This document shows, piece by piece, positions 2,923 to 57,076 of a DNA stretch of 64,000 bases (position 1 is the stretch's first letter; each line of letters starts with the position of its first letter). Source of the DNA: Escherichia phage BAU.Micro_ELP-22. Under the pieces are notes generated by a model. It was not told where the DNA came from. It ran no database searches and worked only from the letters and a program-made list of their open reading frames with translations. The stretch lies in the sequence record OR699282.2. One strand, 5' to 3'. The position numbers and the translations under genes are program-made.

Positions 2923-3016
2923 ATTATAAACAATAAGGACTGGACAATTAAATCCTTCAATAAATAAGACTATACGAATATATTTCGAATAACCAATTAT
3001 TTTTGGAGGATTTAAT

Positions 3017-5680
3017 ATGGCAGGAGATCTACTCTCACCTGGCGTTTCCATTTCAGTAACTGATGAAAGTATGAGTACCGCTGCTGCTCCTGGCACTGTA
3101 CCACTATTTGTAATCGCTACTGCTGAAGACAAACTTGTCCCAGGAAGCAGTGCAATAGCTGCGGGAACTACTAAAGCAAACGCTGGAAAACTACAGCTTC
3201 TAACATCACAAAAAAGCTCACTTGATACCTATGGTACACCAATTTTTCAAATGAATAACGGTTCTGTTGTTCAAGGTGATGAACTAAACGAATATGGCCT
3301 ACATGCAGTATATTCTTATCTAGGCATTACTAACCGTGCATATGTAATTCGTGCTGATATCGATCTAGCACAACTAGCACCAAGTGCTGAAGCACCAACT
3401 GGCCCAGTATCCAATGGTACTTTGTGGTTTGATACCGCACAATCACAAGTAGAAGCGTATGTAGCGAAGAAAGATAGTCCAAGCAGTTTTTATGATTGGC
3501 AACTTAAGCCAGTAACTATTGTAAGTGCTGAAGAAGTTGAAGATGTAAGTCTAGTAGGTTTAAATGTTGATGATTTAGTTCTACGTTACAAACCAAGCAA
3601 TGGTCAGATGCTAATGTATAAACGTTCTGCTTCTGGGCTAGTGCAAATGGAAACTTATCTATCACCAATTAACAAAGTTCCAGTTGGCTCAACTGTAGAA
3701 AAAGGTAACATTTGGATTCGTGATGGTTACACCCAAAATGGTTCAAACTATTTTGGTACTCGTTTTGTTATTAAACGTTATGCATCCCTAACTCAAGTTT
3801 GGAATATTGTACCAGCATATACTGGTAATTCATTCCAAGAAATTGAAGCGAAAAGTGGTGTACTAAACAATAGTTATATCGCATCTCGTTTTGATGAAGA
3901 TAGTAAGAGTTTCTCTTTCTATATTCAAAGTGCAAAACTAACAACAATTAGTGCTCCTGCTTTGCCACTTGGTGAAACTATTATTGAACAAGCAGGTGCT
4001 GATAGTTATATGACTTTTGTTTATTTGAATAAATCAGTTAAAGTACTAGCAGTTCCACAAGGCGGTGTTATTAATACCCAAACTATCATCAATAATCTAA
4101 ATGCAAATGCTGAAATTATTAACGATGGTTTTAAATTTAAACGTGAAACTAATGGTGGTTTAGTTGTTTCCAATACAAAAGGTTACAGTTTCAAAATCAC
4201 ACAAAGTGGTGATGATATTTTTGCTGAATCTGAACTACAAAAACTAACAGTAGATAGTAACAACTACTCTCTAATTAACGTGAATAACTTCCGTGTTAGT
4301 TATTCAGTACCACGTAGTGTAGCAAAAGAAGGAACTCTCTGGTATGATTTCGGGAACTCCGATAATCTAACTGTAACTATGTATGTTGCTGATGTTGCTA
4401 ATGATGAATGGGATCTAGTACAAGAAGAAAACAAATATGTACAAGTTGATGAACCAGCGGCTGACCGTTTAATTTGGGTTTGTCCTTTGTCTCAAGGCAT
4501 TGATGGTTATGATTTCTATCGTAACGTTGATGGTGAATGGGTTAAACTTGACAGTACTGATCAAAGTACACTAAATGGTATGATTTTCCAAGACTTTAAT
4601 TTCCCAAGCCAAGTTCCTGCTGCGGCATTGTATCAAAATGGTATGCTTGCAGTTGACCTAGGTAACACTGAAGGTGTTGTTAAGAAAATGGTTAATGGTC
4701 AATGGGAAGTTGTTAGTGGTGTAAGTCTTGATGGTGCTGGCCTATTTGGTCGTGCTGCACAACGTCAACTAGTAGTTGAAGCACTAGCTGCTGTTATTAT
4801 TGGTAATGATGACATTCGTTCTGAATTTATTGATTTTAACCTAATTTGTGTACCTGGTTACGTTGAAACACTTGATGAATGTGTAACTTTAAACACTGAT
4901 CGTAAAGAAACTGCATTTATTGTTACTGACGTTCCAGCACGTTTGAATCCAACTGGAAACGGTAGTGCTGTACAACAATGGGCTACTAATGCTAACAATG
5001 CACCAAGCAACGGTTCAGTTGGTCGTACAACTGCTTATGATTATGCTGCTCAGTATATGGGTTGGTGTCTAAGTACTAACGTTGATGGTGAAGAAGTTGC
5101 AGTTCCTGGTAGTACTATTGCAATGCGTACATATGCATACAGTGATAGTGTTAGTTATGTATGGTATCCACCTGCTGGTACAACTCGTGGTGTTGTAACA
5201 AACGCTGCAAGTACTGGTTTTATCAACAGCGAAGGTGAATATCAACCAGTAGTATACAACCAAGGTCAACGTGACGTTATGTATACTAACAACATTAACC
5301 CAATTGCAATGCGTCCTAACCGTGGTTTGCTTGTTTATGGAGATAAAACTCTATCTGCTAATCAAACTTCTGCACTAAGTCGTGTTAACGTTGCTCGTTT
5401 AGTTGTTTATATTCGTCGTCAACTAGAAATTATTTCCGAACCATTCCTATTCCGTTTGAATACTCCAAGTACTCGTCAGGAATTTAGTGGTGTAGTTAAT
5501 AGCTTCTTGGCTGAAATTGTTCAACAACAGGGTCTTTATAACTTCGCAGTGGTTTGTGATGAAAGTAACAACACCGCAGAGCGTATTGACCGTAATGAAC
5601 TTTGGATGGATATTGCAATTCAACCAACTAAGAGTATTAACTTCATTTACGTACCAATCCGTATCGAGAAAACTCAATAA
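3017..5680 (+). CDS. tail sheath protein (large, 887 aa)
   Basis: N-terminal MAGDLLSPGVSISVTDES... and C-terminal ...RLVVYIRRQLEIISEPFLF... have the character of contractile tail sheath proteins; sits directly upstream of tube-like genes; strong SD. Confidence 0.75.
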   Translation: MAGDLLSPGVSISVTDESMSTAAAPGTVPLFVIATAEDKLVPGSSAIAAGTTKANAGKLQLLTSQKSSLDTYGTPIFQMNNGSVVQGDELNEYGLHAVYSYLGITNRAYVIRADIDLAQLAPSAEAPTGPVSNGTLWFDTAQSQVEAYVAKKDSPSSFYDWQLKPVTIVSAEEVEDVSLVGLNVDDLVLRYKPSNGQMLMYKRSASGLVQMETYLSPINKVPVGSTVEKGNIWIRDGYTQNGSNYFGTRFVIKRYASLTQVWNIVPAYTGNSFQEIEAKSGVLNNSYIASRFDEDSKSFSFYIQSAKLTTISAPALPLGETIIEQAGADSYMTFVYLNKSVKVLAVPQGGVINTQTIINNLNANAEIINDGFKFKRETNGGLVVSNTKGYSFKITQSGDDIFAESELQKLTVDSNNYSLINVNNFRVSYSVPRSVAKEGTLWYDFGNSDNLTVTMYVADVANDEWDLVQEENKYVQVDEPAADRLIWVCPLSQGIDGYDFYRNVDGEWVKLDSTDQSTLNGMIFQDFNFPSQVPAAALYQNGMLAVDLGNTEGVVKKMVNGQWEVVSGVSLDGAGLFGRAAQRQLVVEALAAVIIGNDDIRSEFIDFNLICVPGYVETLDECVTLNTDRKETAFIVTDVPARLNPTGNGSAVQQWATNANNAPSNGSVGRTTAYDYAAQYMGWCLSTNVDGEEVAVPGSTIAMRTYAYSDSVSYVWYPPAGTTRGVVTNAASTGFINSEGEYQPVVYNQGQRDVMYTNNINPIAMRPNRGLLVYGDKTLSANQTSALSRVNVARLVVYIRRQLEIISEPFLFRLNTPSTRQEFSGVVNSFLAEIVQQQGLYNFAVVCDESNNTAERIDRNELWMDIAIQPTKSINFIYVPIRIEKTQ

Positions 5681-5687
5681 AACACTA

Positions 5688-5712
5688 AGGGAACCTTTTG
5701 GTTCCCTTTTTT
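5688..5712 (+). terminator. rho-independent terminator
   Basis: AGGGAACC-tttt-GGTTCCCT then TTTTTT, immediately after the sheath stop. Confidence 0.65.
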
Positions 5713-5759
5713 ATTGATTAAAATTAAATACCTTTATATTGATGTTATAAAGGAACATT

Positions 5760-5885
5760 ATGGATATGGAAGAAATACTAAAAAAAACAATACAAGATGT
5801 CAGTAAAATAGTTTTAACTCAGTTGGAATCAGTACACATACTAAATATATTTTTAAAAAATTTGGAAGATTGTCGGTATAATTGA
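5760..5885 (+). CDS. possible small protein (41 aa)
   Basis: ATG preceded by AAGGAA at 5-6 nt spacing, inside a 380-bp gap between sheath and tube genes; below the ORF-track size cutoff. Confidence 0.25.
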   Translation: MDMEEILKKTIQDVSKIVLTQLESVHILNIFLKNLEDCRYN

Positions 5886-6075
5886 AAAATACGAAGTATA
5901 CACAAATGGAAAATGGTCTATATCAGTAAACTATATTGACCACACTAAACGAAAAAGATACTTATATTGTGTTAATATTAATTGGTTCCCTGTTGATGAC
6001 ACTTTAGTTAATTAAAAATATACTTCCAGATAGATAAATAATATAAAGATGTCATTCCATAATAGGAGAATATAA

Positions 6076-6762
6076 ATGGCTACAATGCTTGATCGATATG
6101 GCGTACCGCTCGCTGGCGGTGGTCGTATCTCTATGAAACAACCAAAAGCAAAATACAAATTTCGTGTTATTTTCTTTGGTTTTGGTACTAATGATGATGG
6201 TAATATGATTACACTAGACACCAATACAGTTGGGGCAGTATCTGTATCACATGAAAATGTCACTGTTCATAGTTACAACAGTTCTGCACACTATAAAGGT
6301 AAGTACACTTGGGATACAATTGATGTTGCTTTCCGTGACTCAGTAGGTAATGCTTCTGCTAAAGCACTATACAACCAAATGCGTAAAGAATTCAACTACT
6401 ACAGTCAAGAATCTCGCATGACTGATTCACAATTTAAATTCGAAATGTGGATTCAAGAACTTGATGGTTCTAATAGTGAAAATACAACAAACTTGTTTGA
6501 AGGAACATTGAGTACTTGGGTATGTCAAGGTTGCTTTATTGAATCCAGCAACTTTGGTGATTGGGATTATTCCTCAAGTGAAGCACAAGTTATTTCAATG
6601 ACTGTTCAACCAGATGGTTGTGCTAAATTGGGTCCAAATGGCGAAGCGTTCGGTGATGAAGTTAGTGGCTTCGGTAATCCATCAACTGCTACCTCTATTT
6701 CTGGTGCACAAACTAATATTAGTAGTACTACTCTACCAGATAGTAACTTCTACGAAAATTAA
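6076..6762 (+). CDS. tail tube-like protein, paralog 1
   Basis: Follows the sheath gene; shares YGVPL..RSM.QPKAKYKFRVI and FRDSVGNASAKAL blocks with the next ORF; AGGAGAA SD. Confidence 0.5.
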   Translation: MATMLDRYGVPLAGGGRISMKQPKAKYKFRVIFFGFGTNDDGNMITLDTNTVGAVSVSHENVTVHSYNSSAHYKGKYTWDTIDVAFRDSVGNASAKALYNQMRKEFNYYSQESRMTDSQFKFEMWIQELDGSNSENTTNLFEGTLSTWVCQGCFIESSNFGDWDYSSSEAQVISMTVQPDGCAKLGPNGEAFGDEVSGFGNPSTATSISGAQTNISSTTLPDSNFYEN

Positions 6763-6783
6763 TTTTATTTAAACTTAATATAT

Positions 6784-6811
6784 AGCCTCGAATCTATTCG
6801 GGGCTTTTTTT
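6784..6811 (+). terminator. rho-independent terminator
   Basis: AGCCTCGAA-tcta-TTCGGGGCT stem (one G-U pair) followed by TTTTTTT. Confidence 0.55.
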
Positions 6812-6857
6812 ATGCTAAATAAAGTATAATGCCTTATAAAATAAAAAAGAGGTTGCT

Positions 6858-7634
6858 ATGGCAAATAACATGATTAATAAATATGGCGTTCCTTTACCAT
6901 CGGGGCGTAATCGTTCAATGCTACAACCGAAAGCAAAATACAAGTTTCGTGTTATTGTGTATAATTTCGGTACTGATATAGATGAACGTGATCACATCGC
7001 ATTAGATGTTGATAAAATTGATAGACCTACTGTAACATTTAGTACTCATAAACTATATCAATTTACTACTAATACTTCCTATATAGGTAGTCATGATTGG
7101 GAACCAATTACAATATCTATCCGTGATTCAGTTGGTAATGCATCAGCAAAAGCATTATCACGCCAATTACAAAAACAACTTGACTTTCAACGCAGAATAA
7201 CTTCAAGAAGTGACCAAGATTATGGTTCTTATAAATTTGGTTTGGTTATACAGATGTTGAGTGGACGTAACTCAGATGATACACTAGGAAATCTAGGAAG
7301 AGATACTCTAGTAGATGCTGCAACTGCTGCAACAAATAATTCTGGCTTAGTAAATGCAGTAGATCAATTTATTGGTGGTTCTTCATATAACAGTGCTGGT
7401 GTTATGGAATACTTTGTTTTAACCGGATGTGTTATTCAAAACATATCATACGATTCATTAGATTATAGCTCAAGTTCTCCAGTTGAAATGGTAGTGACTA
7501 TCAAACCAGATAATTGTATACAATTTGATAATATTGAAGAAATGTATAGTACCAGAATTAATTCACTTTTACCTGAAAATGTCAATCAAGGTTTAGATAT
7601 CATTGATCGTGTTTTTGGTAGTGTAGGATTTTAA
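6858..7634 (+). CDS. tail tube-like protein, paralog 2
   Basis: Paralogous to 6076-6762 (shared N-terminal and central blocks). Confidence 0.5.
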   Translation: MANNMINKYGVPLPSGRNRSMLQPKAKYKFRVIVYNFGTDIDERDHIALDVDKIDRPTVTFSTHKLYQFTTNTSYIGSHDWEPITISIRDSVGNASAKALSRQLQKQLDFQRRITSRSDQDYGSYKFGLVIQMLSGRNSDDTLGNLGRDTLVDAATAATNNSGLVNAVDQFIGGSSYNSAGVMEYFVLTGCVIQNISYDSLDYSSSSPVEMVVTIKPDNCIQFDNIEEMYSTRINSLLPENVNQGLDIIDRVFGSVGF

Positions 7635-7645
7635 GGAGATAATGA

Positions 7646-9753
<2,108 letters not shown>

Positions 9754-37276: not shown

Positions 37277-38620
37277 TTATTTGTCAGTGAAAGTTATTTT
37301 CCAATATCCCTGACGATACACAGGCATGATACTTTTATGCCATTTAAATTTGTCATTATATCTATAATAACCATTGTCTTCTTTATTATAAATGTAATTT
37401 CGTACAGTAGATGGTTCAATTAATTGTGCACCGTCATTTGTAATTTTAAACAAATAATTTGATGGGATTTCGGTTTCTTTATAAATGATGTTATGTATAC
37501 TGTTATTTACATAATATTGTTCAGGTAATGCACTTGAAAGTACTGAATCTTTCTGCACAAACCCATGTATAGTGTAATCAACAGTATAATTGGTATTATC
37601 AAGCTGTACTATAATTTTGTTGGCATCTTCATTTTCACCATACGACGCTATATGACCTTTTAGTGGGTTGTCTTCTTCAATAGATTGTTGAAATTTAATC
37701 CCTACTTTTTTGTCATCAAAATTTGGTTCTAGATATTTAAGATATTTTTCCCATGAATATATTCCACCGTTGGGAGAAACCGCAGATAGCGATTGGCTAA
37801 CCAAGGTAAGTTGGTATGTATCAGGTAAATTATACTTGGAATTAGTAATTTCTTCAACTTTAATGCATAAATTCTTGGGTGTAAAAACATCTGTTATTAT
37901 ATCTGAATAATTTCCCATTTCAAAATCAAATTCGTCACGAGCACCTTTAATATTTGTAGTAATCTGTTGGATTAATTTGGGTTTTTCAACAATAGCTGGT
38001 AAAGAAAACCATATTGTCGTTTCAAATGTTAAAACCATTATATCCAAATCTGGGTCAGTTCCTTGTGGAAAACCACGAGTAGAAAACTGACAATCTATTA
38101 GTTCAACATCACTAAGCGATGTCCAATCTAACGGGTTATCAGATAATTGAAGTTGTATACTAGGTGCAAACAAAGTTGAGATTTGTTCGAATAATTCCAT
38201 TTTAGTTTGAGTTTGAGTTACCCAAATATTCAAATCAAACGTAAAAGTCCAAGGTACTGGGTTATGTCTTACAATTTTGTATTGTGTGTCAAGATCTTTT
38301 GTGTACTCATTAATAGCAGGGGACTTGTTAGACCCCATTACTATAGTTTCGTTGGCATTAGAACGAATATTTTTACGATCCAACTTTAGTTGATTAACAC
38401 TTATGGTCATTATAGGTGCTGATGGGAGAACATTTTCACTATTCCCATTTATAATTGCTGCTGCCATTCTTGAAATATCGGCATAGCGACATGGAACCTT
38501 TTTGTATTTTGGGTTTCCATTAGCATCAATACCATTTTGTACTTGAAATTCACCAAAAACTCTGATAAGATGTTTCAGTACTCTGCGAAATTGACCGTCA
38601 TAATAATAATCTATTTTCAT
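37277..38620 (-). CDS. hypothetical protein
   Basis: ATG start overlaps the upstream stop (ATGA). Confidence 0.45.
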   Translation of the reverse strand: MKIDYYYDGQFRRVLKHLIRVFGEFQVQNGIDANGNPKYKKVPCRYADISRMAAAIINGNSENVLPSAPIMTISVNQLKLDRKNIRSNANETIVMGSNKSPAINEYTKDLDTQYKIVRHNPVPWTFTFDLNIWVTQTQTKMELFEQISTLFAPSIQLQLSDNPLDWTSLSDVELIDCQFSTRGFPQGTDPDLDIMVLTFETTIWFSLPAIVEKPKLIQQITTNIKGARDEFDFEMGNYSDIITDVFTPKNLCIKVEEITNSKYNLPDTYQLTLVSQSLSAVSPNGGIYSWEKYLKYLEPNFDDKKVGIKFQQSIEEDNPLKGHIASYGENEDANKIIVQLDNTNYTVDYTIHGFVQKDSVLSSALPEQYYVNNSIHNIIYKETEIPSNYLFKITNDGAQLIEPSTVRNYIYNKEDNGYYRYNDKFKWHKSIMPVYRQGYWKITFTDK

Positions 38621-42546: not shown

Positions 42547-45500
42547 TTACTTAACTAATAATATATTTTTAATATCATTACCACTAACTTGTAGACTATC
42601 AGTGTATACTGAAAGATCTATAGTGTAACTATTTTGTGTGTAACGTTTTAACATATCATAATTACCTAAATTAATTCCATTGAAAGAATATGTAGTATTA
42701 AGTTTAAAATCATGTTCTGCACTATACATTACACCACGGAGTAAATTATTTGCATTTCTAACTTCAACTTTTTCATATCCAATCGATATAATATCATTCA
42801 TGTTCGCGGCTGAACCGGATAAAACATTATTTCTAATACTATAAGGACTTATTGATTTAGGTTGAGAAACATAGGTTGTATTTTCTTCACTAATGGTTGT
42901 GATGTTAGTAACAGTACCCCCAACAACACCGATATACATACCGTCAACCATTGGGAATCCATAAACCCATATCCCTTCATTATTTCTAAACGGTTGAATA
43001 ACACTTGAATCATATTCGATAACGTTGATTTCTAAACTATCAGTCATTTTAGTTCTTGCCAATTCACTAAGAACTCCCGCACCCGTAATTGGTAAGTTAT
43101 AACCGTTATCGATAGTAATTCCATCAACATCAAATATTTCATTGGAGATTATCCAAACGTCAACGTCATCTGGTGTTATTCCGTCATTGTACTTACCACC
43201 ATTTAAAGTAGTATCGTAGAAAACATCATAATTAATTACATCAATGGTGTAATTTCTATTTTGTTCATACAATTTAATACCATTCTTGACAAATTCAGGG
43301 TCAGCAAATGTTCTAACACGAACAATGTTCAATGCTAGAGGCTGTACTGGCTCATTTTGTTGTGCAAGAGTGATGTTATCATAACGGAGAACTGCACCAG
43401 TACTCTCATCAATCAATTCAATCGTTTCCTTACCTGTATTTCTTACAGTGAATAGGATCGGAGTTGTATTGTTTTTGATGTTAGATACACGCAAGATTGT
43501 TTCCCATGTGTGATTTTGATATCTCACAAAATCTTCACCATCAGGAGTGAAAATCATCACCTTATCACCATCAGATAGGTCATTGTCAACTATTTCTGCT
43601 TCAGTTAAGCTATTAATAGATCTCACACGATAGAAATATTTTTCATCAAACTTCGATGTTGTTTTATTAATATCATTTTCAATCTTAGCATATGAAGGAA
43701 TACTTACAATTGCTTCTGTATGTTTATATGGATTGATAATTGCCATACCTTCAGTTTGATATCTGCTGTTATCACGTAATTGTACAAGAGATACATTGTC
43801 AAACCCATATCCATCAACTGTAAATCTAATTTGTCCAACATCACGCCCAGAAGGGTTTATGTCAGATATATCCACAATATAAGGATCAACTTCATCATCT
43901 TTAACTTCCCATTTTATTGAAGAAGTTTGAGATTCCAATGCTAGGTTATCAAATGCATTCATATCATTGAAGTACTTAGCTTCAGTAATACTATCAAGTA
44001 TATATTGATAATCAGAATACATTGGATTATTTTGATCTAGTGGTAAATCATCAAGATTTATTTCAGCTAGTTCAACCATTTCACCATTTGTGATAAAATA
44101 ATCTTCCATGAAATCATCAATACTTTGTTCATCAGGTATACTTTGATATACACCGTTAACATTTAAGTAAACATATTTTCGTGGAATCATTGTAATTGCA
44201 TAGATATCAATTGGGGTCTTACTAAGAATCTCTTCAGCTTTTTCGTACTTATCAGTAGCGTCTTTGTCGAATAACCCTCTCATACCTGCTAATACGTGAA
44301 TAGCATCAGTATAGAAACGGGTATCACCACCTACTTCATCATAACGATAAACATATACACCATACTCAACTTCAAGTTTAACTTTTACTTCATAGTCTGA
44401 TGCGTCAGGATTTTTATCTTTAATTAATGAAATGTATTTTTGATACAATTCACTGCTTATTTCAAAATATCCATAGTTATAATCATTACTAGAAGAAAAG
44501 CCTAATGGAAGTCTAGTACTAGGATTGTCATTATAAGTAAGTCCACTAAATCCACATCCAACTTCATCGTGAATTTTCTCATCACTTATATCTTTATAAA
44601 GTTTCAAACGGTTTGCCAATGTGTTATACTGAACATATTGTCTAAGGTCAGTAAACATATCGTTATGCGTTGATTCTTTATAAACACGTTCCAATGTAGC
44701 AGTGAATTCATCAGTTGCTTCTAAATCTTCCGCATGGTCTTTATACCACTGGTTAACGCCATATGCTGTTCCTAGTGTTACATCCAATTCTGGATAGTAG
44801 ATTTGCATTTGATAAGCAATAAGAAGATCGAAAGTTTCTTCACTATATTCTGGGAAAGAATATATATAACGTTGTAATTCATAGTTACTAACAGCATCCT
44901 TTTCATTGGATTGATATTTGTTATTAACACTTACTAATTCATTTATGCTTGCCAAATCTTCATTTGGTTTACACTGAATATTATCATAATGCATAATAAT
45001 ATCAATTTCTTGGAATCTTCTATTTGGTGTAACGAAATCACTTGGTAGTGAACCTACCTGTTCCCATTTTTGGGTAATTTCATTAAATTGAGCGTACTCA
45101 TAATCCCAAATATCTTTTTCAGTTTTGATCCAAGAACTGTCAACGAAAATATATCCATTAGGATCTAAATCATTACATAGACCTTTTATTAAATCATCAT
45201 CAGATGTCTTTTGCTCTATTTGTGAACGAATTTTAGTTCTATAAGGTTTAACTTCTTCAAAATATTCAACAATTTGATTAATCAAATTATCGTTTGAATA
45301 GTTTTGAACTAATGATTGTTCCAAACCAACAATATAGATATATGATGTTTTAAATACCCAATCCACAACACTTTGTTCAACATGTACATATTTGACCATA
45401 TCAAAAACAATTTCGCTTTGATGTAAATCGAAAGAATTTTTGAGTAAAGCTAGTGCTTTACGAACGTTGATTTCACGATTGCTTAGTGAACCATTATCAT

Positions 45501-48500
45501 TATGAACACTATAATCTGCGTAAAGCATATCATTGAGTTCAACTGTACTGTTTTCACGACCAATCGCTTTCCAATAAATTGAATCGCGTGATTGTGATTT
45601 AATATACAATGTCCAAATGTTTTCACTATCGGTAACTCTGATAATATCGCCAACTTGGTAGTTTTTAGTATTAGCATCTTCTAAGCTTGACTCTTGAGTA
45701 TAAGTCGTGTTACTATCATATCCAACATCATACCAATCAGCATATGACCAGTACTGAGTCATGTCTAATGAGGTTCCTAGTGATTCAACATAATCAGATT
45801 GTTTAATCATTTTATGTTGTCCCTCACCTTTGTTTTCTAACGTTATAGTAACAACACTACCCGCGTTTGCTGGACTATTCATTAACTGAATATATCCATT
45901 TTCGTCGAAGTGAATAAAATAAACAGCACTAGAAGTTAATGGATTTGGTAGATATCCACTAGTACTTAAAATAACAGCGTCATTTTCTTTAAATTTATCA
46001 CTTTCAACTGCAATAACTAATTCATTATTGTAAGACAACACACGGAAAGAAACTTCATTAGGGTTAACTTCAGTGGTTTTAACATTAAACACATCTTCCA
46101 TAACAACACTATTAGTGGTTATGTTTTGTGACCTATAATAATTATTAGCACTTTCTACAAAGTTTCTACGAGCTTCTATAACATTTTGGAACCAAGTTTT
46201 GTTTGATCCTAAACCGTTATCAACATCTGGATATAATAAATTAATCACAGAACCTGATTCAGTTGTTTCTTGACCAATTAGTGAGTTCCACATTGAATCC
46301 CAAATTAGTGGGTTAAAGTTATAGCTGTCACCTTCTTTACATAGTTGATACTGGTCATGTTTAACAACTTCAGTACTATCCATGTAATAAGAAACAGTTA
46401 AAATACTGGTATCATCATTCACTTTAAATTGCATATTACTAAGAATAAACGAGTTTTCATTTATTGGAGCGAACCAAGGAATGTTTAGCTGTGTTGGATC
46501 TTTAATAATACGAGCAATGTCAGTACATGATTTCGTTCTGGTATGTAGTGGTGGTACATAAATTGTATCACGTACCCAGAAATAGTATTTTGTCACATAA
46601 CTATCAGTTGAACTATCATATTCCAAAAATGTACTATAATTATCTTCAAGTGCAGTTCCACTTGGTAGATACATAGTATTATTTTTGTTTTTCTTAGCAA
46701 CATCTTTACAGTATTTGTCCCAGTTATATGGCTCAACTGGTGAACAAACCCACTCTAACACATCAATGGTACTATGTGGCAACAAACGGCCCCAGTTGTA
46801 ACGTTTGTATTCATTGGTTGCATCAATATCAACATTACCGTCTGCGTCATAAATTGCACGAGTATAATCCAAATAAAATGCAGTGCTAGTGTTCCACCAT
46901 ACTTGACCAACTTTATCAGCACCCCAAGCCTGGATTAACTCTCCATTACTATTATACTGTGCAGGATCAACTGGTGAAGTATATGTTACGTTTTGCATAG
47001 CCGCACCTGGAATAACACCATTAATTGGGTCATAAACATTTAGATATAGCTCAGTAATGTTAGTACGTTCATCATATGTCGTTGGACGATCAAATAAAGT
47101 ACTTTGTGGTGCTTTAAAACTATATTTCTTGTCAATGTAAGCTTGACGTTCATCAGTACTGGCAAAACGTGATACATAACGATACAAACGTGGACGTGTA
47201 TCTGGATCAGTAAATTCAATATCAATAGAAGTGTCAAATGGAACTACCATAACTTTAGGATCAGAACCAGCAGTATAATATTGACTTTCTACTGTTAAAG
47301 TATCTGGCATAAAGTTAGTTTCATCAACAAAATAATAATAATCACCATCTTCAAGTGGTACATTATCAGTTAAAGTTACTTTACAAAATTGTTCAGCATA
47401 CACATCGGTATTTTCAATAGGTGTTATAGAAACCATTTGCACATTAGTATCAACCAATTCAAAAATGTTCCACAAACCATTACCGTCTTTAAACATCCAC
47501 ACAGATTCAGGATTTTCACCTTTACCATTAGTATAAGTTATGCGGTCATTATATGCAGTACTGAAATCTTTTGTTGTGTACGATACTTCATCCAATGTTA
47601 CTGGACCAATATCTGGAAGTTGGATGTTTTCACTTCTTCCACTACGCATTGGGAATGAGAACTTACCATTTGGACGTGTAATCCAACGAGGATCTTTACC
47701 TTGCTCACCGAAGTATACAATATGATTACCATTACCATTTGAAGTTGCATTTACATCAAAAGAAACCATTTGAGGTTGTTGTTTAAATTGGTCATTGATT
47801 AGTTTAAATTGAAGGTTTTTCTTACCATCAATATTACCATATGTACCAATTTTAAATGCCCATTCTTGTAATGCTTTATATTCATCAGTGTCATATGATT
47901 TAGAAACACGAAGTACACGTTCTAAAACTTGGTTAGTACCTTTATCGTGAATGAATCCTTTATAGAAATCAACACGACTAACATCACTACTAATCATACG
48001 CTGTAGATAATCACGAGATTGATAACCAATCAAATGGTTTGACAACTCTTGTAATTGTACATCACTTACTGGAGTTTCACTATCATAATAATGTTGGAAA
48101 TCCGACACTAATTTTTCAAATGATGGTAGTGTTCCAGCTTCCAAGATAATAAATCCAGGAGCTTGTAGGCGACCAGTCCATGAACCAGTAATATATCCAT
48201 ACATTTTAATTAGTTCTTGAATAGAACCATATGTTGGCTGATAAATGTAATCACCAAAAATAGTTTTATCATCAAAAATAACAGCATGTTCATATGAACA
48301 CAAACTTAAACGAATCAATGCAATGCGTTTATTAGATTCTAAAGTTCTAACAGTGAAGATATTTCCAATACGAGAAGTTTCAATTTCATATTGGCGAATA
48401 CCTTGGTTATTATCATCAAGTAATGACCATACACCACCATTATTTTGCGTAATAGATTGTACTGAACCAAAGTCTGCCCCAAATTTAGCGTTTGCAGCAC

Positions 48501-51500
48501 TTGGGGTACAAGAAATAAATTCACCAGTTACTAGAGAATTCTGACTCCAGATCACGAAATCTTTAGCAATAGTGTTCCAATCTTGTTGAGCACCACTATC
48601 ATTTACATCTTCAAAAATCCAACCATGTTCTTTAAGATATTCACCATATCCACAAATAAAAGTATAAACTTCTTGGTAACTATTGAAAACTTTACCATAT
48701 TCAATTGAAGCTTCAGACTTCCATTCATTATAATGAACAACATTACGGTTTTCCAATTTAAGAGTTACTTTTCTACCATTTTTTACTGGAAGTTTATATT
48801 TAAATTTAGCACCAACTAGATCATATCCATCAATCTGATATGCACTACCATTCCAAGTAATTTTGATCGCACTCATTTGCTCATCACGGATATTATTAGA
48901 ACGAACAAGACCAATGGTTTGGTTTTCTTGTGAAATAAGACCGAAAGATTTAGCATTGAATGTTAGCTGATCTGCTTTAGTAAATCCTCCAATTTTATGA
49001 CCAACATTTATATAAGAAGAACGAACTACATCCCCATACTTGGTAGTAATATTTTTATTTTGATACATCAAATGGTCACTTACAAACATTTGATAACCAA
49101 TTGTTCTTGTGCTATTTTCACCATGAACTACTGTATTTTTATCAAAATTAATACGCTTACGTGTATCACCATAAAGGAATTGTGAACCATCAGTGAATAC
49201 TTCTTTTAAGTTATCGTTGCGGGTATCCCAGAAATAGTTAGCAAATTGTGCTGGTTTAGCTTTATACAAAAGCATCATTTGGTCATATGCAAACAATGTA
49301 GTGTTCATGTATGTAAATTCCATGTCACCCATATCACCATATGTCCAAGGTTCTGCTCTATGATTTAAAGATCCAGACACTAAACCTAAAATTTCAGGTG
49401 CAATATATTCAACCACACAAATATCAATACCAGAAGATGTTTTATTTCCAGTTTTTGTAATTTTGAATGGCTGTACACCAAATCTTTTATATTTGTCATA
49501 TTGACCACGACGATCACCAAATAAAATAGTTCCAGTACTGCTATCGCCAATAGTTCCGTCAATATCCCAAAGACCACTAGGAACTAAATCACCTTGCTCA
49601 TTCATAACAAGTGCTTCATATACATATACAACATCACTATCACGTTCACCAACTTGAACAGCCGTTGGTTCGTATTCTTGGTTCCACCAAGTTGGACGTT
49701 GTGTAAAGCCAAACATTTCCCACGGATGGGTAGCTGGGCGATATGTACCATATTGGTCAGTGTAAATGGCACGCCATGAACCACGTGCAGGAATTTCAGT
49801 ACTTTGACCATTAACTACATAATAAGTGCCAGTATAGTTCCAAGTTCTCCAATTGTTAGGATCATAATCATGTGTACTATTACTGATACCATTAGTTGCG
49901 GTGAAGTTAATGTATCCACGTAGTAATAATGTTTGTTTCTCTTCAGCACTATATTCAGTTTTAGTGAAATATGGTGTAGGGAAAAGGTCATCACTATTCA
50001 ATACTGGTACGTAATCAACATCTTTGAATTTATTATCAATACTATTAAAAATTCTATTTTCTAATTCATATACAACATCATCCATTTTATCAACACCATT
50101 GATAACACGGTATGCTTTGGAAATAATACCAGTATGACTGATGTTATAACAGCTTGGTTTACTACCAGCAGTGAGGAATGTCGCTTTTTCTGGTACATAT
50201 GCTTGAAGAATACCTAAGAACTGTGGTGTTGGTGGTATAAATGCACGAATGAATCCAGAAGTACTTCCAACATTATCATAATAGAATGGGAATGAACTAT
50301 CACGTCCCATATTAATAGTAGTTAAAATTGCATCAACAATGTTTGCAGCACTATTTTGTAAAAAGTCTGATGGATTTTCATCATACATACGAAGCATTTG
50401 TGTATTAAATTTATTAATGAATCTAAAATATTCAGATTGCATAAACATAGTTGCTTCAAACAAATCAATATCTTCATTTGCAGTATGTGCCATCAATGGA
50501 AGCATAGATGCTTCATTTTGGATAATTTTAGTACCTACGCCATTATTAACCAATCCTTTAGCCAAACGTTCTTCATAGTCATTGAAATCATCAGAAGAAC
50601 CACGTGTAATGTTCTTTTGAATAATATCCTGAAAATGTAAAGTGTAGTCACCTTGGTTAATGTATATAATATTAGAATTATATGGGTTATTTTGTAGGTT
50701 GATTGGAACTTCATATGCACCTAATTCTTTATTAGGAGTTACAGTACTGCTATAAGTTCTAATTTGAATAACAGAATCTTCATCCAATTCTACAGTACTA
50801 TCTAGAGTGATGCTTTGTACTTGACCTTTTGAAACATTTTTGGTATATTTGGACACATCAACACCATCAACCACAACTTCAATAATATCAGAATCATTAT
50901 CTAAAACTTTTTGTGCCAATTCGAATGTATGGTCATATTTTACAATCTGAACACCATCACCAGTAATTGGATGCCAATCTAGATAAGTTTCACGGTCAGC
51001 TTTATAGTACTGATATGTTCTATCAACTTCAATAACATATGCATACATACCATCAACTGGTTCTTTAAAAACTTCCATATCATAAACAGTACTGAATACA
51101 CGATACATATCAGTACGTTGGACTTGTGGAGTTTGTTTTACAAATTGTTTAGAGTACTCTTCTGAACGAACCCAATCGGTTTGAAGATTCATTTCATTAT
51201 TTTCATCAATAATGTTATAATAGTATAAACCATCAATTTCAACTTCTTTTCCAAGATGGTCATAGGTATAACGTTGGGATTGTAAAAAGTTTTCATAAAT
51301 GTAATAATTATAATCACCAAGTTCAATGTTATATCCATATACACTATCAGTTGCATAGTTGTAATTTATTTTAAAACCAAACAACTCTGAACCTTTAAAG
51401 TTACTTGATGGATATGTAGTACTGTTGTCAAGTTTGATACCATTACGATCATAAAGTTGGAATTTAGGGAATACGTTAACACTAGTTTTTGATTGTGCAC

Positions 51501-52548
51501 GAACCCACAAAGATCCATTCCAGTACATAGAACTATTACCATACTCATTACCTTTAGTGATTAGAACAACATCACCATCTTGAGGTTCACCACTTGGGCG
51601 TGATTCGGTTTCTTCTTCTGGATCTAGTGCTAAACCATAAACACGAGTACCATCTTGCATTTTTTTCACATATACATTATAAATTCTATTGTTTTCACCA
51701 TTGTTACCAATACTGGTGAATAGAATACGCATTCCATCTTGCGGAATAATACCATCAATACGTATACCACTATTAATATCTTTTTGAACGATATCTTCAG
51801 GTTTAATAATATCAGAGAACAGATCAACAGTTCCACGGAATTTTGTACCGTAGTTAATTAGCTCAATATTTTTATTATATTCAATAATTGGTGCACGTGC
51901 ACGAATAAAACGTGAATCTTGCATTAATTCTTCAGTTAATATTGAGCCATCTTCTAATGTTTCACCTAAAGTATACCAAAAGTTTTGTAGTGACCATGTA
52001 TTACCATTAAGTGCTCCACGTTCCATTACAATGTAATCAGGTGAAGTAATATTATAAGAGTTTTTAGTATCCCAAAGATATGAGCTAAAATTGTTCATTT
52101 TATTTGGGTTAATAGCTGGAGTCCATGCATAAAACTTACCGTTGAACAAACGGCTTTCATTATCGGTTAGTGCTCCATAATGATTCATGTATCCAACTAG
52201 ATCATCATAAAATTGAATTGAACGAATTGTCGAATCATCATTTTTTGAGACGTAAGCAGTGGACAACTGATAAAGTTGACGTGCTACAGTACTTTCATGT
52301 AAGAAGATATTACCAGCAGCGGCAGGAGAACCCATATCACCAATATAGCCGTCAACTAATTCGTTTTCAGCCGGATTAAACCATTGTTGAATAACATCAT
52401 CACTGACTTTTTGAATATCTTCTAAGCCTTGCATCCACTCAGGCAATCTTTTAATAAAAAGCTTCTTCTGTACTGCTTCAGCCATCTGTGTAGGTTGAAA
52501 CTTAAAATTATTAGTCATTTTTGGACTCCATATAATTCGTTCATTCAT
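42547..52548 (-). CDS. giant protein (3333 aa), probable baseplate or tail component
   Basis: Uninterrupted 10 kb frame directly downstream of the baseplate-J-like gene; alternative ATG at 52518 has a GGAG SD. Confidence 0.65.
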   Translation of the reverse strand: MNERIIWSPKMTNNFKFQPTQMAEAVQKKLFIKRLPEWMQGLEDIQKVSDDVIQQWFNPAENELVDGYIGDMGSPAAAGNIFLHESTVARQLYQLSTAYVSKNDDSTIRSIQFYDDLVGYMNHYGALTDNESRLFNGKFYAWTPAINPNKMNNFSSYLWDTKNSYNITSPDYIVMERGALNGNTWSLQNFWYTLGETLEDGSILTEELMQDSRFIRARAPIIEYNKNIELINYGTKFRGTVDLFSDIIKPEDIVQKDINSGIRIDGIIPQDGMRILFTSIGNNGENNRIYNVYVKKMQDGTRVYGLALDPEEETESRPSGEPQDGDVVLITKGNEYGNSSMYWNGSLWVRAQSKTSVNVFPKFQLYDRNGIKLDNSTTYPSSNFKGSELFGFKINYNYATDSVYGYNIELGDYNYYIYENFLQSQRYTYDHLGKEVEIDGLYYYNIIDENNEMNLQTDWVRSEEYSKQFVKQTPQVQRTDMYRVFSTVYDMEVFKEPVDGMYAYVIEVDRTYQYYKADRETYLDWHPITGDGVQIVKYDHTFELAQKVLDNDSDIIEVVVDGVDVSKYTKNVSKGQVQSITLDSTVELDEDSVIQIRTYSSTVTPNKELGAYEVPINLQNNPYNSNIIYINQGDYTLHFQDIIQKNITRGSSDDFNDYEERLAKGLVNNGVGTKIIQNEASMLPLMAHTANEDIDLFEATMFMQSEYFRFINKFNTQMLRMYDENPSDFLQNSAANIVDAILTTINMGRDSSFPFYYDNVGSTSGFIRAFIPPTPQFLGILQAYVPEKATFLTAGSKPSCYNISHTGIISKAYRVINGVDKMDDVVYELENRIFNSIDNKFKDVDYVPVLNSDDLFPTPYFTKTEYSAEEKQTLLLRGYINFTATNGISNSTHDYDPNNWRTWNYTGTYYVVNGQSTEIPARGSWRAIYTDQYGTYRPATHPWEMFGFTQRPTWWNQEYEPTAVQVGERDSDVVYVYEALVMNEQGDLVPSGLWDIDGTIGDSSTGTILFGDRRGQYDKYKRFGVQPFKITKTGNKTSSGIDICVVEYIAPEILGLVSGSLNHRAEPWTYGDMGDMEFTYMNTTLFAYDQMMLLYKAKPAQFANYFWDTRNDNLKEVFTDGSQFLYGDTRKRINFDKNTVVHGENSTRTIGYQMFVSDHLMYQNKNITTKYGDVVRSSYINVGHKIGGFTKADQLTFNAKSFGLISQENQTIGLVRSNNIRDEQMSAIKITWNGSAYQIDGYDLVGAKFKYKLPVKNGRKVTLKLENRNVVHYNEWKSEASIEYGKVFNSYQEVYTFICGYGEYLKEHGWIFEDVNDSGAQQDWNTIAKDFVIWSQNSLVTGEFISCTPSAANAKFGADFGSVQSITQNNGGVWSLLDDNNQGIRQYEIETSRIGNIFTVRTLESNKRIALIRLSLCSYEHAVIFDDKTIFGDYIYQPTYGSIQELIKMYGYITGSWTGRLQAPGFIILEAGTLPSFEKLVSDFQHYYDSETPVSDVQLQELSNHLIGYQSRDYLQRMISSDVSRVDFYKGFIHDKGTNQVLERVLRVSKSYDTDEYKALQEWAFKIGTYGNIDGKKNLQFKLINDQFKQQPQMVSFDVNATSNGNGNHIVYFGEQGKDPRWITRPNGKFSFPMRSGRSENIQLPDIGPVTLDEVSYTTKDFSTAYNDRITYTNGKGENPESVWMFKDGNGLWNIFELVDTNVQMVSITPIENTDVYAEQFCKVTLTDNVPLEDGDYYYFVDETNFMPDTLTVESQYYTAGSDPKVMVVPFDTSIDIEFTDPDTRPRLYRYVSRFASTDERQAYIDKKYSFKAPQSTLFDRPTTYDERTNITELYLNVYDPINGVIPGAAMQNVTYTSPVDPAQYNSNGELIQAWGADKVGQVWWNTSTAFYLDYTRAIYDADGNVDIDATNEYKRYNWGRLLPHSTIDVLEWVCSPVEPYNWDKYCKDVAKKNKNNTMYLPSGTALEDNYSTFLEYDSSTDSYVTKYYFWVRDTIYVPPLHTRTKSCTDIARIIKDPTQLNIPWFAPINENSFILSNMQFKVNDDTSILTVSYYMDSTEVVKHDQYQLCKEGDSYNFNPLIWDSMWNSLIGQETTESGSVINLLYPDVDNGLGSNKTWFQNVIEARRNFVESANNYYRSQNITTNSVVMEDVFNVKTTEVNPNEVSFRVLSYNNELVIAVESDKFKENDAVILSTSGYLPNPLTSSAVYFIHFDENGYIQLMNSPANAGSVVTITLENKGEGQHKMIKQSDYVESLGTSLDMTQYWSYADWYDVGYDSNTTYTQESSLEDANTKNYQVGDIIRVTDSENIWTLYIKSQSRDSIYWKAIGRENSTVELNDMLYADYSVHNDNGSLSNREINVRKALALLKNSFDLHQSEIVFDMVKYVHVEQSVVDWVFKTSYIYIVGLEQSLVQNYSNDNLINQIVEYFEEVKPYRTKIRSQIEQKTSDDDLIKGLCNDLDPNGYIFVDSSWIKTEKDIWDYEYAQFNEITQKWEQVGSLPSDFVTPNRRFQEIDIIMHYDNIQCKPNEDLASINELVSVNNKYQSNEKDAVSNYELQRYIYSFPEYSEETFDLLIAYQMQIYYPELDVTLGTAYGVNQWYKDHAEDLEATDEFTATLERVYKESTHNDMFTDLRQYVQYNTLANRLKLYKDISDEKIHDEVGCGFSGLTYNDNPSTRLPLGFSSSNDYNYGYFEISSELYQKYISLIKDKNPDASDYEVKVKLEVEYGVYVYRYDEVGGDTRFYTDAIHVLAGMRGLFDKDATDKYEKAEEILSKTPIDIYAITMIPRKYVYLNVNGVYQSIPDEQSIDDFMEDYFITNGEMVELAEINLDDLPLDQNNPMYSDYQYILDSITEAKYFNDMNAFDNLALESQTSSIKWEVKDDEVDPYIVDISDINPSGRDVGQIRFTVDGYGFDNVSLVQLRDNSRYQTEGMAIINPYKHTEAIVSIPSYAKIENDINKTTSKFDEKYFYRVRSINSLTEAEIVDNDLSDGDKVMIFTPDGEDFVRYQNHTWETILRVSNIKNNTTPILFTVRNTGKETIELIDESTGAVLRYDNITLAQQNEPVQPLALNIVRVRTFADPEFVKNGIKLYEQNRNYTIDVINYDVFYDTTLNGGKYNDGITPDDVDVWIISNEIFDVDGITIDNGYNLPITGAGVLSELARTKMTDSLEINVIEYDSSVIQPFRNNEGIWVYGFPMVDGMYIGVVGGTVTNITTISEENTTYVSQPKSISPYSIRNNVLSGSAANMNDIISIGYEKVEVRNANNLLRGVMYSAEHDFKLNTTYSFNGINLGNYDMLKRYTQNSYTIDLSVYTDSLQVSGNDIKNILLVK

Positions 52549-56059: not shown

Positions 56060-56123
56060 AATTTATTCCTTTAAATCAGTAAAGTACTAGTTCAGTACTG
56101 GGAATTATATATAGAAATATTTA

Positions 56124-56156
56124 TTCAAAAAGAAAAGCACTCCGAAGAGTGCTTTT
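56124..56156 (-). terminator. rho-independent terminator with UUCG tetraloop (minus strand)
   Basis: GCACTC-cgaa-GAGTGC with flanking A/T runs. Confidence 0.55.
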
Positions 56157-56160
56157 GTAA

Positions 56161-56556: not shown

Positions 56557-56571
56557 TGACTATTTCCTTTA

Positions 56572-57060: not shown

Positions 57061-57076
57061 AAAGATATCCTCGTTT

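What the first reader, a model, noticed from the sequence alone, without database searches (positions are those of the whole stretch)
6076..7634. Tandem paralogous tail-tube-like genes after the sheath gene
Two adjacent ORFs (228 and 258 aa) share blocks (YGVPL..G..RSM.QPKAKYKFRVI; FRDSVGNASAKAL) but diverge elsewhere. A duplicated tube subunit could mean a heteromeric tube, or one paralogue acting as tube initiator or terminator. The unusually large 887-aa sheath protein may be related.
Basis: partly seen in the sequence, partly recalled or inferred. Interest (0 to 1): 0.45.

Follow-up and report, generated by a model that had tools for sequence, protein, structure and literature searches.

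The report
Three tail-tube paralogues after sheath gene
In this known E. coli jumbo phage, the two similar genes after the tail sheath gene are tail-tube-fold proteins, one of them probably the tube itself, and a third, more distant copy follows them; this layout is ordinary for contractile tails and is already annotated in public records.

Summary
ORF1 (6076-6762, 228 aa) and ORF2 (6858-7634, 258 aa) are true paralogues (41% identity over 147 aa, E 4e-35).

The window is 99.7-99.9% identical to Asteriusvirus jumbo coliphages (PBECO4, 121Q, phAPEC6, JP4). Their RefSeq and newer GenBank records already label all three genes "tail tube protein".

ORF1 and ORF2 belong to PHROG 4542, which T4 gp19 also matches. 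The AlphaFold models of ORF1 and ORF3 match tube, tube-initiator and tube-terminator proteins of contractile systems. All three proteins were found in virions of near-identical or related phages.

ORF1 is most likely the major tube subunit:
- it has its own promoter-like motif and its own terminator, a layout repeated in five relatives;
- it is the most conserved of the three and has a constant length;
- it is the most completely detected by mass spectrometry.

ORF2 and ORF3 are translationally coupled and lie in one unit with the gp4-like head-completion gene. They are most likely minor ring proteins at the tube ends, like T4 gp54, gp48 or gp3. Which end each one occupies is not resolved. A mixed ORF1/ORF2 tube is unlikely.

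This is a known kind of arrangement and of low interest.

The parts
3017..5680 (+). Tail sheath gene (887 aa), with a TAAATA promoter-like motif at 2961-2966
   Evidence: Pfam PF17482 at E 2e-14 and phrog_10581 at E 0. It is 99.7-99.9% identical to the annotated sheath of PBECO4, 121Q and phAPEC6. phAPEC6 Gp277 gave 36 peptides and builds 25 hexameric rings (PMC7247149).
5687..5714 (+). Intrinsic-terminator-like hairpin plus T-run directly after the sheath gene
   Evidence: A 9-bp stem with 5 GC pairs followed by TTTTTT. An equivalent hairpin follows the sheath gene in RaK2, CBB, PA5oct and Vibrio phage 2.275.O.
6035..6040 (+). TAAATA promoter-like motif 42 nt upstream of ORF1
   Evidence: The motif lies within 100 nt upstream of 17 of 36 genes (for about ten of them 35-57 nt from the start codon), against a background of 0.37 per kb per strand. 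Its function is inferred.
6076..6762 (+). ORF1, 228 aa: tube-fold protein and most likely the major tail tube subunit
   Evidence: phrog_4542 at E 5e-86. The AF2 model (core pLDDT 70-80) matches Afp/Pvc/A-1(L)/KP1 tube proteins and T4 gp19 and gp3 by Foldseek at E 5e-7 to 1e-5. It is 80% identical to RaK2 gp042, the most conserved of the three. It was detected in phAPEC6, RaK2 and CBB virions.
6784..6812 (+). Intrinsic-terminator-like hairpin plus T7 run after ORF1
   Evidence: AGCCTCGAATCTATTCGGGGCT followed by TTTTTTT. Hairpins of different sequence sit at the same place in RaK2, CBB, Vibrio 2.275.O, PA5oct and XacN1.
6816..6821 (+). TAAATA promoter-like motif 43 nt upstream of ORF2
   Evidence: A comparable (C)TAAATA sits after the ORF1 terminator in RaK2 and CBB.
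6858..7634 (+). ORF2, 258 aa: lineage-specific duplicate of ORF1, most likely a minor tube-end ring protein
   Evidence: phrog_4542 at E 7e-80 and 41% identity to ORF1. It carries a conserved 32-aa insertion and a different C-terminal tail. The ORF2 clade has 100% bootstrap support. It was detected in phAPEC6 and RaK2 virions but not in CBB.
7646..8740 (+). ORF3, 364 aa: older, diverged tube-fold paralogue with N- and C-terminal extensions, most likely a tube-end ring protein (initiator favoured). It starts 11 nt after ORF2, with a GGAG in the gap.
8740..9168 (+). gp4-like head-completion gene, whose start overlaps the ORF3 stop (ATGA). It lies in the same unit as ORF2 and ORF3.
   Evidence: PF08722 at E 2e-16 and phrog_218 'head closure' at E 2e-40. 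It follows the ORF3-like gene, directly or after one short ORF, in RaK2, CBB, PA5oct, Atu_ph07, XacN1, SCTP-2 and apparently the Vibrio phage, whose gene 384 was not scanned.

Best explanation
The locus is a three-gene set of tail-tube-fold paralogues downstream of the sheath gene of an Asteriusvirus (PBECO4/121Q-type) jumbo coliphage.

ORF1 (228 aa) is the major tube subunit. It would polymerise as stacked hexamers inside the 25-ring sheath. It is made in bulk from its own promoter-terminator unit, as the sheath gene is.

ORF2 (258 aa) arose by duplication of the tube gene within the RaK2-like lineage. ORF3 (364 aa) is an older paralogue present throughout the wider clade. ORF2 and ORF3 are translated from one coupled message together with the gp4-like head-completion gene. 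Each would form a low-copy hexameric ring that adapts one end of the tube:
- at the baseplate hub, as tube initiators like T4 gp54/gp48, Pvc5 or phiKZ gp88; and/or
- under the gp15-like tail terminator, as a tube terminator like T4 gp3.

**Shown:** paralogy, the tube fold, presence in virions, and the promoter/terminator/coupling layout with its conservation.

**Inferred:** which protein is the bulk subunit, and the position of ORF2 and ORF3. I favour ORF3 as the baseplate-side initiator. ORF2 as a second initiator ring or as the terminator is about even.
For: **Fold and family.**
- ORF1 and ORF2 are in phrog_4542; ORF3 is in phrog_13438 and weakly in phrog_4542 and phrog_45.
- T4 gp19 hits phrog_4542 at E 5e-10. 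phrog_45 unites T4 gp19, gp54 and gp3.
- The ORF1 model hits tube proteins by Foldseek. The ORF3 model hits gp3, gp54, Pvc5 and gp19.

**Virion presence (published mass spectrometry).**
- phAPEC6 (99.8% identical over the sheath-to-gp4 region searched, window 3000-9200): gp275c, gp274c and gp273c have masses of 25.07, 28.76 and 40.42 kDa, equal to ORF1, ORF2 and ORF3. They gave 2, 3 and 7 peptides (masses).
- RaK2: gp042 gave 5 peptides, gp043 gave 3.
- CBB: CBB_205 gave 6 peptides, CBB_207 gave 9.

**ORF1 as the bulk subunit.**
- It is flanked by terminator hairpins and has its own TAAATA motif. ORF2|ORF3 are 11 nt apart with a GGAG, and the ORF3 stop overlaps the gp4-like start.
- The same terminator placement occurs with unrelated hairpin sequences in RaK2, CBB, Vibrio 2.275.O, PA5oct and XacN1.
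- ORF1 is the most conserved: 80% identity to RaK2, against 74% for ORF2 and 77% for ORF3.
- ORF1-type proteins keep a length of 190-231 aa, while ORF3-type proteins range from 209 to 1310 aa.
- ORF1 has only 7 observable tryptic peptides (maximum 27% coverage), yet reached 20-23% coverage in RaK2 and CBB.

**ORF2 as a non-essential addition.**
- PA5oct, Atu_ph07 and XacN1 have one ORF1-like gene in this cluster. In PA5oct and Atu_ph07 the next gene is ORF3-like; XacN1's next gene was not compared.

**ORF3 at an end of the tube.**
- Long family members carry C-terminal discoidin domains, which cannot fit between tube and sheath.

**Precedent.** T4 gp3, gp54 and gp48 (PMC12929629) and phiKZ gp88 and gp182 (PMC13250141).
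Against: - Neither stoichiometry nor position was measured for any of the three proteins.
- Raw peptide counts in phAPEC6 and CBB are higher for ORF3 than for ORF1. My correction for tryptic observability is rough.
- The AF2 models are of moderate quality: mean pLDDT 63 for ORF1 and 57 for ORF3.
- ORF2 was not modelled, because only two prediction jobs were allowed.
- Atu_ph07 and SCTP-2 lack the terminator after the tube gene.
- The promoter motif and the terminators are sequence predictions, not transcript data.
- A gp48-type protein (phrog_230) was not found, so a further unrecognised ring protein may exist.
Confidence: 0.7

Rival explanations
1. ORF3 (364 aa) is the major tube subunit, and ORF1 and ORF2 are the minor end rings. 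Jumbo phages with large sheath proteins often have large tube proteins.
For: - ORF3 gave the most peptides and the highest coverage in phAPEC6 (7 peptides, 29.9%) and CBB (9 peptides, 37.1%).
- The phiKp24 and phiKZ tube proteins are about 290 aa with long extensions (PMC9700779).
- The RaK2 authors expected a tube protein larger than T4 gp19.
Against: - ORF3 has 18 observable tryptic peptides against 7 for ORF1, which explains the raw counts.
- ORF3 was not detected at all in RaK2 virions.
- It has no promoter motif or terminator of its own and is coupled to ORF2 and the gp4-like gene.
- Family length varies from 209 to 1310 aa, with discoidin domains on long members. That is incompatible with a lattice enclosed by a sheath.
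Confidence: 0.12
2. ORF1 and ORF2 co-polymerise into a heteromeric tube, either as alternating or mixed rings or as a distinct ORF2 segment of several rings.
For: - Both proteins are in virions of phAPEC6 and RaK2, with similar peptide counts.
- The N-terminal arm and the RDSVGNASAKAL block are conserved between them, which would permit shared contacts.
- SCTP-2 carries three ORF1-like copies.
Against: - The two genes are in separate transcription units, with a conserved terminator between them.
- ORF2 is absent from PA5oct, Atu_ph07 and XacN1.
- ORF2 was not detected in CBB virions.
- ORF2 evolves faster than ORF1.
- ORF2 has a 32-aa insertion and a diverged beta-hairpin relative to ORF1.
- None of the solved contractile tails among the structural matches listed is described as having a mixed tube.
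Confidence: 0.07
3. None of the three is the bulk tube protein. The true tube subunit is encoded elsewhere, for example by the orthologues of RaK2 gp106w/gp107w, as proposed in 2013.
For: RaK2 gp106w and gp107w are abundant, beta-rich paralogues of 21-25 kDa. The RaK2 authors proposed them as the tube. Their coverage was 55% and 54%.
Against: - gp106w and gp107w fall in phrog_9326, in the 'head and packaging' category, with no tube-family hit.
- ORF1, ORF2 and ORF3 do have the tube fold and sit next to the sheath gene.
- No other ORF in the window matches the tube profiles.
- The gp106w/gp107w fold was not modelled here.
Confidence: 0.04

Closest known systems
T4 tail tube set: gp19 (tube), gp54 and gp48 (baseplate-tube junction rings), gp3 (tube terminator)
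   Same: - Several paralogous tube-fold proteins, of which one is polymeric and the others form single hexameric rings at the tube ends (PMC12929629).
- T4 gp19 matches the ORF1/ORF2 PHROG at E 5e-10.
- The tube gene follows the sheath gene, as T4 gene 19 follows gene 18.
- The gp1-like kinase and the gp4-like gene flank the cluster, recalling the T4 gene order 1-3-2-4.
   Different: - Here the paralogues are clustered in tandem, whereas in T4 they lie at three separate loci.
- There is no detectable gp48-type (phrog_230) member.
- Sequence identity to the T4 proteins is at or below profile-detection level.
- ORF2 is a much closer copy of the tube gene (35-41% identity) than gp3 is of gp19 (about 22%).
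- ORF3 has a 95-residue Gly/Ala/Ser/Ile-rich C-terminal tail predicted with low confidence.
Afp/PVC extracellular contractile injection systems: Afp1/Pvc1 (tube), Afp5/Pvc5 (tube initiator), Afp7/Pvc7
   Same: - A graded series of tube paralogues: the tube itself, a close copy and a divergent copy with extras.
- The ORF1 model's top Foldseek hits are the AFP and PVC tube chains.
   Different: - Gene order differs.
- ORF3 has no LysM-type domain (Pfam found nothing).
- Those systems are not phage tails.
Orthologous genes in RaK2-like jumbo phages (121Q 552-554, RaK2 gp042-044, CBB_205-207, phAPEC6 gp275c-273c), in PHROGs 4542 and 13438
   Same: - The same genes: 100% identical proteins occur in PBECO4, 121Q, phAPEC6 and JP4.
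- They are already labelled 'tail tube protein (x3)' in RefSeq and in recent GenBank records.
   Different: Nothing differs in sequence. In the papers I could read, none assigns the three proteins to tube, initiator or terminator. The 2013 RaK2 paper could not identify the tube protein at all.
phiKp24 gp119 and phiKZ gp30 (jumbo-phage tube proteins of about 290 aa) with phiKZ gp88 and gp182 (initiator and spacer rings)
   Different: There is no sequence-level relationship: phmmer and profile searches of the PDB found nothing. Structural scores are lower than to the T4 and PVC proteins.

Membership tests
Contractile-tail tube protein superfamily (T4 gp19 / Pvc1 / Hcp fold; PHROGs 4542 and 45) | Sequence-profile match to a tube family that also contains a structurally proven tube protein | tested here: met
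   ORF1 hits phrog_4542 at E 5e-86, ORF2 at E 7e-80 and ORF3 at E 1e-5, with 60 of 60 ORF3-family members also hitting it. T4 gp19 hits phrog_4542 at E 5e-10.
Contractile-tail tube protein superfamily (T4 gp19 / Pvc1 / Hcp fold; PHROGs 4542 and 45) | Beta-sandwich core with one flanking alpha-helix and a long beta-hairpin | tested here: met
Contractile-tail tube protein superfamily (T4 gp19 / Pvc1 / Hcp fold; PHROGs 4542 and 45) | Encoded next to the sheath gene and present in virions | tested here: met
   Gene order is shown. Published mass spectrometry of phAPEC6, RaK2 and CBB virions detected the proteins.
Contractile-tail tube protein superfamily (T4 gp19 / Pvc1 / Hcp fold; PHROGs 4542 and 45) | Assembles as stacked hexameric rings with the sheath's helical symmetry (major subunit, about 150 copies for 25 rings) | not testable with these tools
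   This needs a cryo-EM map or absolute quantification. Peptide counts corrected for observability favour ORF1 but are not stoichiometry.
T4 gp3-type tube terminator | Tube-fold hexamer sitting between the last tube ring and the gp15-type tail terminator | tested here: inconclusive
T4 gp54-type tube initiator | Profile match to the gp54 family, and a tube-fold core with N- and C-terminal extensions | tested here: inconclusive
T4 gp48-type baseplate tail tube cap (phrog_230) | Profile match to phrog_230 / gp48 | tested here: not met
   None of ORF1, ORF2 or ORF3 hits phrog_230, whereas T4 gp48 does at E 1e-100. hhalign of the ORF3 family against gp48 gives E 0.56. None of ten other tail or baseplate ORFs in the window hits it either.

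The most novel reading that the evidence does not exclude
ORF2 is not a conventional end ring. It would be incorporated at defined internal levels of the tube, or as a multi-ring segment, giving a segmented heteromeric tube. Such a tube might be related to the three annular rings of 'hairy' fibres seen along the phAPEC6 tail. Repeated independent duplications of the tube gene in this clade (RaK2-like phages, the Vibrio phage, three copies in SCTP-2) would then reflect selection for tube heterogeneity.
Probability: 0.05. Interest if true: 0.6.

Novelty: already known. Interest (0 to 1): 0.15.

Why it matters
It matters little beyond annotation. The three genes are already labelled as tail tube proteins in public records of identical phages, and tube-fold paralogues serving as initiator or terminator rings are textbook for T4-type and other contractile tails.

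The useful by-products are these:
- a reasoned nomination of ORF1 (121Q gp552, RaK2 gp042) as the real tube subunit, which the original RaK2 paper could not identify;
- the point that raw peptide counts mislead here, because ORF1 has very few observable tryptic peptides;
- the observation that the tube gene has been duplicated more than once in this jumbo-phage clade.

These points would help anyone building atomic models into RaK2-like or Asteriusvirus tail maps.

Tried and rejected
- **Direct sequence searches of the PDB.** Searches with ORF1, ORF2 and ORF3, and with the profiles A1, A3 and A5, found nothing meaningful. Even the phiKp24 tube (8BFK) is reachable only by fold.
- **Profile comparison with single T4 sequences.** hhalign of the family profiles against T4 gp19, gp54 and gp48 was insignificant. 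My own hhalign run, with a wrong flag, gave nothing usable. The link to gp19 came from PHROG 4542 instead.
- **Modelling ORF2 and ORF3 together.** I built a concatenated query to model both in one job. MAFFT aligned the ORF2 homologues onto the ORF3 half, so I abandoned it without submitting. ORF2 therefore has no model.
- **The exact T4 late promoter.** TATAAATA is not enriched: 2 matches against about 10 expected. The shorter TAAATA motif is the one that tracks gene starts.
- **RaK2 gp106w/gp107w as the tube.** They are placed in a PHROG of the head-and-packaging category, so I rejected this as unlikely.
- **Mapping the ORF2 insertion onto gp3.** Linear interpolation through phrog_45 coordinates places the ORF2 insertion near the gp3 loop 117-121, which faces gp15 in T4. 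I could not verify this without model coordinates, so I did not use it in the verdict.
- **PA5oct proteome supplements.** They are not held in the library.
Full report
**Where the window comes from.** Positions 3000-9200 are 99.7-99.9% identical over their full length to Escherichia jumbo phages JP4, UB, PBECO4, phAPEC6, SP27 and 121Q (genus Asteriusvirus). They are 60-90% identical, by megablast identity band, to the wider RaK2-like group. In those records the three genes after the sheath are annotated 'tail tube protein (x3)' (RefSeq, JP4, SHEFM2K, E9.1). Older GenBank entries call them 'structural protein' or 'hypothetical protein'.

**The observation.** ORF1 (6076-6762, 228 aa) and ORF2 (6858-7634, 258 aa) exist as described, downstream of an 887-aa sheath gene at 3017-5680.
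- BLASTP gives 41% identity over 147 aa, E 4e-35. Global identity is 35%, with a 32-residue insertion in ORF2 and unrelated C-terminal tails.
There are 39 columns conserved in common and 11 fixed family-specific differences.
- At DNA level only the N-terminal block is still similar (79% over 70 nt). The RDSVGNASAKAL block is not, so the duplication is old and maintained by selection on the protein.

**The third paralogue.**
- It hits phrog_13438 'tail tube protein' at E 8e-227, phrog_4542 at E 1e-5 and phrog_45 at E 7e-4.
- hhalign of the ORF1 family against the ORF3 family gives 96.5% probability, E 8e-10 over 170 columns.
- All 60 sampled members of the ORF3 family hit phrog_4542, with a best E of 2e-19.
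- HMMs of the three families find only these three genes among all ORFs of the window.

**Are they tube proteins?**
- ORF1 and ORF2 fall in phrog_4542 at E 5e-86 and 7e-80.
- T4 gp19 matches the same PHROG at E 5e-10. phrog_45 holds T4 gp19, gp54 and gp3. T4 gp48 is in a separate family, phrog_230.
- Pfam has no model for any of the three. Sequence or profile searches of the PDB find nothing.
- The AlphaFold2 model of ORF1 (mean pLDDT 63, core 70-80) has the strand, hairpin and helix order of a tube protein. Its Foldseek hits are AFP and PVC tube chains, the cyanophage A-1(L) and Klebsiella KP1 tubes, T4 gp3, T4 gp19 and the phiKp24 tube, at E 5e-7 to 5e-5.
The genes are tube-fold proteins.

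**Virion presence.** Published mass spectrometry covers three phages.
- phAPEC6: its table lists gp275c, gp274c and gp273c at 25.07, 28.76 and 40.42 kDa with 2, 3 and 7 unique peptides (PMC7247149). These masses equal ORF1, ORF2 and ORF3.
- RaK2: gp042 gave 5 peptides (23.3% coverage), gp043 gave 3 (17.1%), and gp044 is not listed (PMC3622015 supplement; gene map).
- CBB: CBB_205 gave 6 peptides (20.1%), CBB_207 gave 9 (37.1%), and CBB_206 is not listed (PMC5259590).
- The PA5oct record marks both of its homologues 'ESI-MS/MS'.

Raw counts mislead here. ORF1 has only 7 tryptic peptides of 7-30 residues (maximum 27% coverage), against 12 (54%) for ORF2 and 18 (75%) for ORF3. Relative to what can be seen, ORF1 is the most completely detected in RaK2 and CBB.

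**Expression layout.**
- A strong hairpin plus T-run follows the sheath gene (5687-5708) and another follows ORF1 (6784-6805 plus T7).
- ORF2 and ORF3 are 11 nt apart with a GGAG in the gap. The ORF3 stop overlaps the start of the gp4-like head-completion gene (ATGA).
- Hairpins of unrelated sequence sit directly after the sheath gene in RaK2, CBB, PA5oct and Vibrio phage 2.275.O, and directly after the ORF1-like gene in those four phages and XacN1. The ORF2|ORF3 spacer is 9-11 nt in RaK2 and CBB and 3 nt in the Vibrio phage. Atu_ph07 and SCTP-2 lack the terminator.
- A TAAATA motif lies within 100 nt upstream of 17 of 36 genes checked, and for about ten of them 35-57 nt from the start codon. 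These include the sheath gene, ORF1 (6035-6040) and ORF2 (6816-6821), but not ORF3 or the gp4-like gene. Background is 0.37 per kb per strand.
- I infer that the sheath gene and ORF1 are each a stand-alone, high-output unit, and that ORF2, ORF3 and the gp4-like gene form a coupled unit.

**Evolution.**
- Synteny is conserved across the clade: sheath, ORF1-like tube gene, zero to two further ORF1-like copies, an ORF3-like gene (not verified for XacN1), sometimes a short ORF, then the gp4-like gene.
- PA5oct, Atu_ph07 and XacN1 have a single ORF1-like gene of 193-206 aa. PA5oct and Atu_ph07 also have an ORF3-like gene of 492 and 328 aa. The Vibrio phage has two ORF1-like genes and SCTP-2 has three.
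- In a neighbour-joining tree the ORF2 clade and the ORF1 clade each have 100% support and group together at 79%. The second Vibrio copy groups on the ORF1 side at 98%. The single-copy phages lie outside, on poorly supported basal branches (3-46%). The tube gene has therefore been duplicated more than once.
- Conservation runs ORF1 > ORF3 > ORF2: 80%, 77% and 74% identity to RaK2, with the sheath at 70.5%.

**Interpretation.**
- T4 uses four tube-fold proteins: gp19 (polymer), gp54 and gp48 (rings between hub and tube) and gp3 (a ring that stops tube growth under gp15). gp3 is 'very similar to gp19 despite about 22% identity' (PMC12929629).
- phiKZ likewise has an initiator ring (gp88) and a spacer ring (gp182) (PMC13250141).
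- The simplest reading here is that ORF1 is the tube and that ORF2 and ORF3 are single rings at its ends. A gp15-like terminator is present at 37277-38620 on the minus strand (phrog_227). No gp48-type protein was recognised.
- I lean to ORF3 as the baseplate-side initiator. It is present throughout the clade, as tube-fold initiators are in the contractile systems cited above, and it has gp54-like N- and C-terminal extensions and exposed C-terminal domains in relatives.
- ORF2 could be a second initiator ring or a gp3-like terminator. The evidence does not separate these.
- The adjacency of ORF3 to the gp4-like gene, and the gp1-like kinase upstream, recall the T4 gene order 1-3-2-4. That would instead favour ORF3 as the terminator, so I leave the position open.

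**Rivals.**
- *ORF3 as the bulk tube.* The higher raw peptide counts and the large tube proteins of other jumbo phages support it. The observability correction, non-detection in RaK2, the coupled expression and the length variability argue against it.
- *A heteromeric ORF1/ORF2 tube.* The terminator between the genes, the absence of ORF2 from related phages, its faster evolution and its non-detection in CBB argue against it.
- *RaK2 gp106w/gp107w as the tube (the 2013 proposal).* These proteins fall in a PHROG of the head-and-packaging category.

**The large sheath.** RaK2-like sheaths are about 888 aa. PA5oct has a sheath of similar size but no ORF2. I see no link between sheath size and the duplication.

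**Novelty and verdict.** The genes, their family assignment and their virion presence are already in public records and papers, and the arrangement is a standard one for contractile tails. What is not published, as far as the held literature shows, is which of the three is the tube. The 2013 RaK2 paper could not identify it, and the phAPEC6 paper does not mention a tube protein. The evidence here nominates ORF1. The finding is real but ordinary.

Noticed in passing
window 2961-2966, 6035-6040, 6816-6821, and upstream of the genes starting at 9781, 10321, 12417, 34539, 35667, 30105(-) and 57060(-): A TAAATA(A/T) motif lies within 100 nt upstream of 17 of 36 genes checked, and for about ten of them 35-57 nt from the start codon. 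Background is 0.37 per kb per strand. It looks like a late promoter related to T4's TATAAATA, but the exact T4 octamer is not enriched.
   Followed up: partly
window 37277-38620 (-): This 447-aa protein is labelled 'tail sheath' in the JP4 record. It matches phrog_227 'tail sheath stabilizer' (T4 gp15 type) over residues 3-229. It is probably the tail terminator and not a second sheath protein.
   Followed up: partly
window 8740-9168 (+): The gp4-like head-completion protein has a TnsA-like endonuclease N-terminal fold (PF08722, E 2e-16). Its start codon overlaps the ORF3 stop (ATGA). It follows the ORF3-like gene, directly or after one short ORF, in every relative examined.
   Followed up: partly
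window 5681-6075: The spacer between the sheath gene and ORF1 is 395 nt here, against 121 nt in RaK2 and 106 nt in CBB. It contains a 41-codon ORF (5760-5885) that is annotated as a CDS in JP4.
   Followed up: no
homologues P0238 and P0257 of ORF3 (metagenomic): Very long ORF3-family members (1310 and 1098 aa) carry C-terminal F5/8 type C (discoidin) carbohydrate-binding domains. One also has an NCTSP_N 'non-contractile tail sheath' domain. The family has 2017 cluster representatives at E <= 1e-3.
   Followed up: partly
L008 2796-4412 (PA5oct); L009 6775-9657 (Vibrio phage 2.275.O); L010 5001-7283 (SCTP-2): The sheath-tube cluster accepts insertions. PA5oct has a Hef-like homing endonuclease between sheath and tube. 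The Vibrio phage has a pectin-lyase-fold gene plus a reverse-strand gene between its two ORF1-like genes. SCTP-2 has three ORF1-like copies in tandem.
   Followed up: partly
L007 14012-15331 (RaK2 ORF106w/ORF107w): This is an abundant pair of distantly related 21-25 kDa virion proteins that was proposed in 2013 as the RaK2 tail tube. Both fall in phrog_9326, in the 'head and packaging' category. It is another tandem paralogue pair, probably capsid-associated, and lies outside the window.
   Followed up: partly
window 42547-52548 (-): A single 3333-aa ORF, annotated 'virion structural protein' in JP4, lies just upstream of the baseplate module at 52598-63170.
   Followed up: no
window about 14000-34500: Window coordinates run about 2.4 kb ahead of JP4 from about 34 kb onward, so the window carries an indel relative to JP4 somewhere between 14 and 34 kb, the span that holds the large tail-fibre gene.
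   Followed up: no
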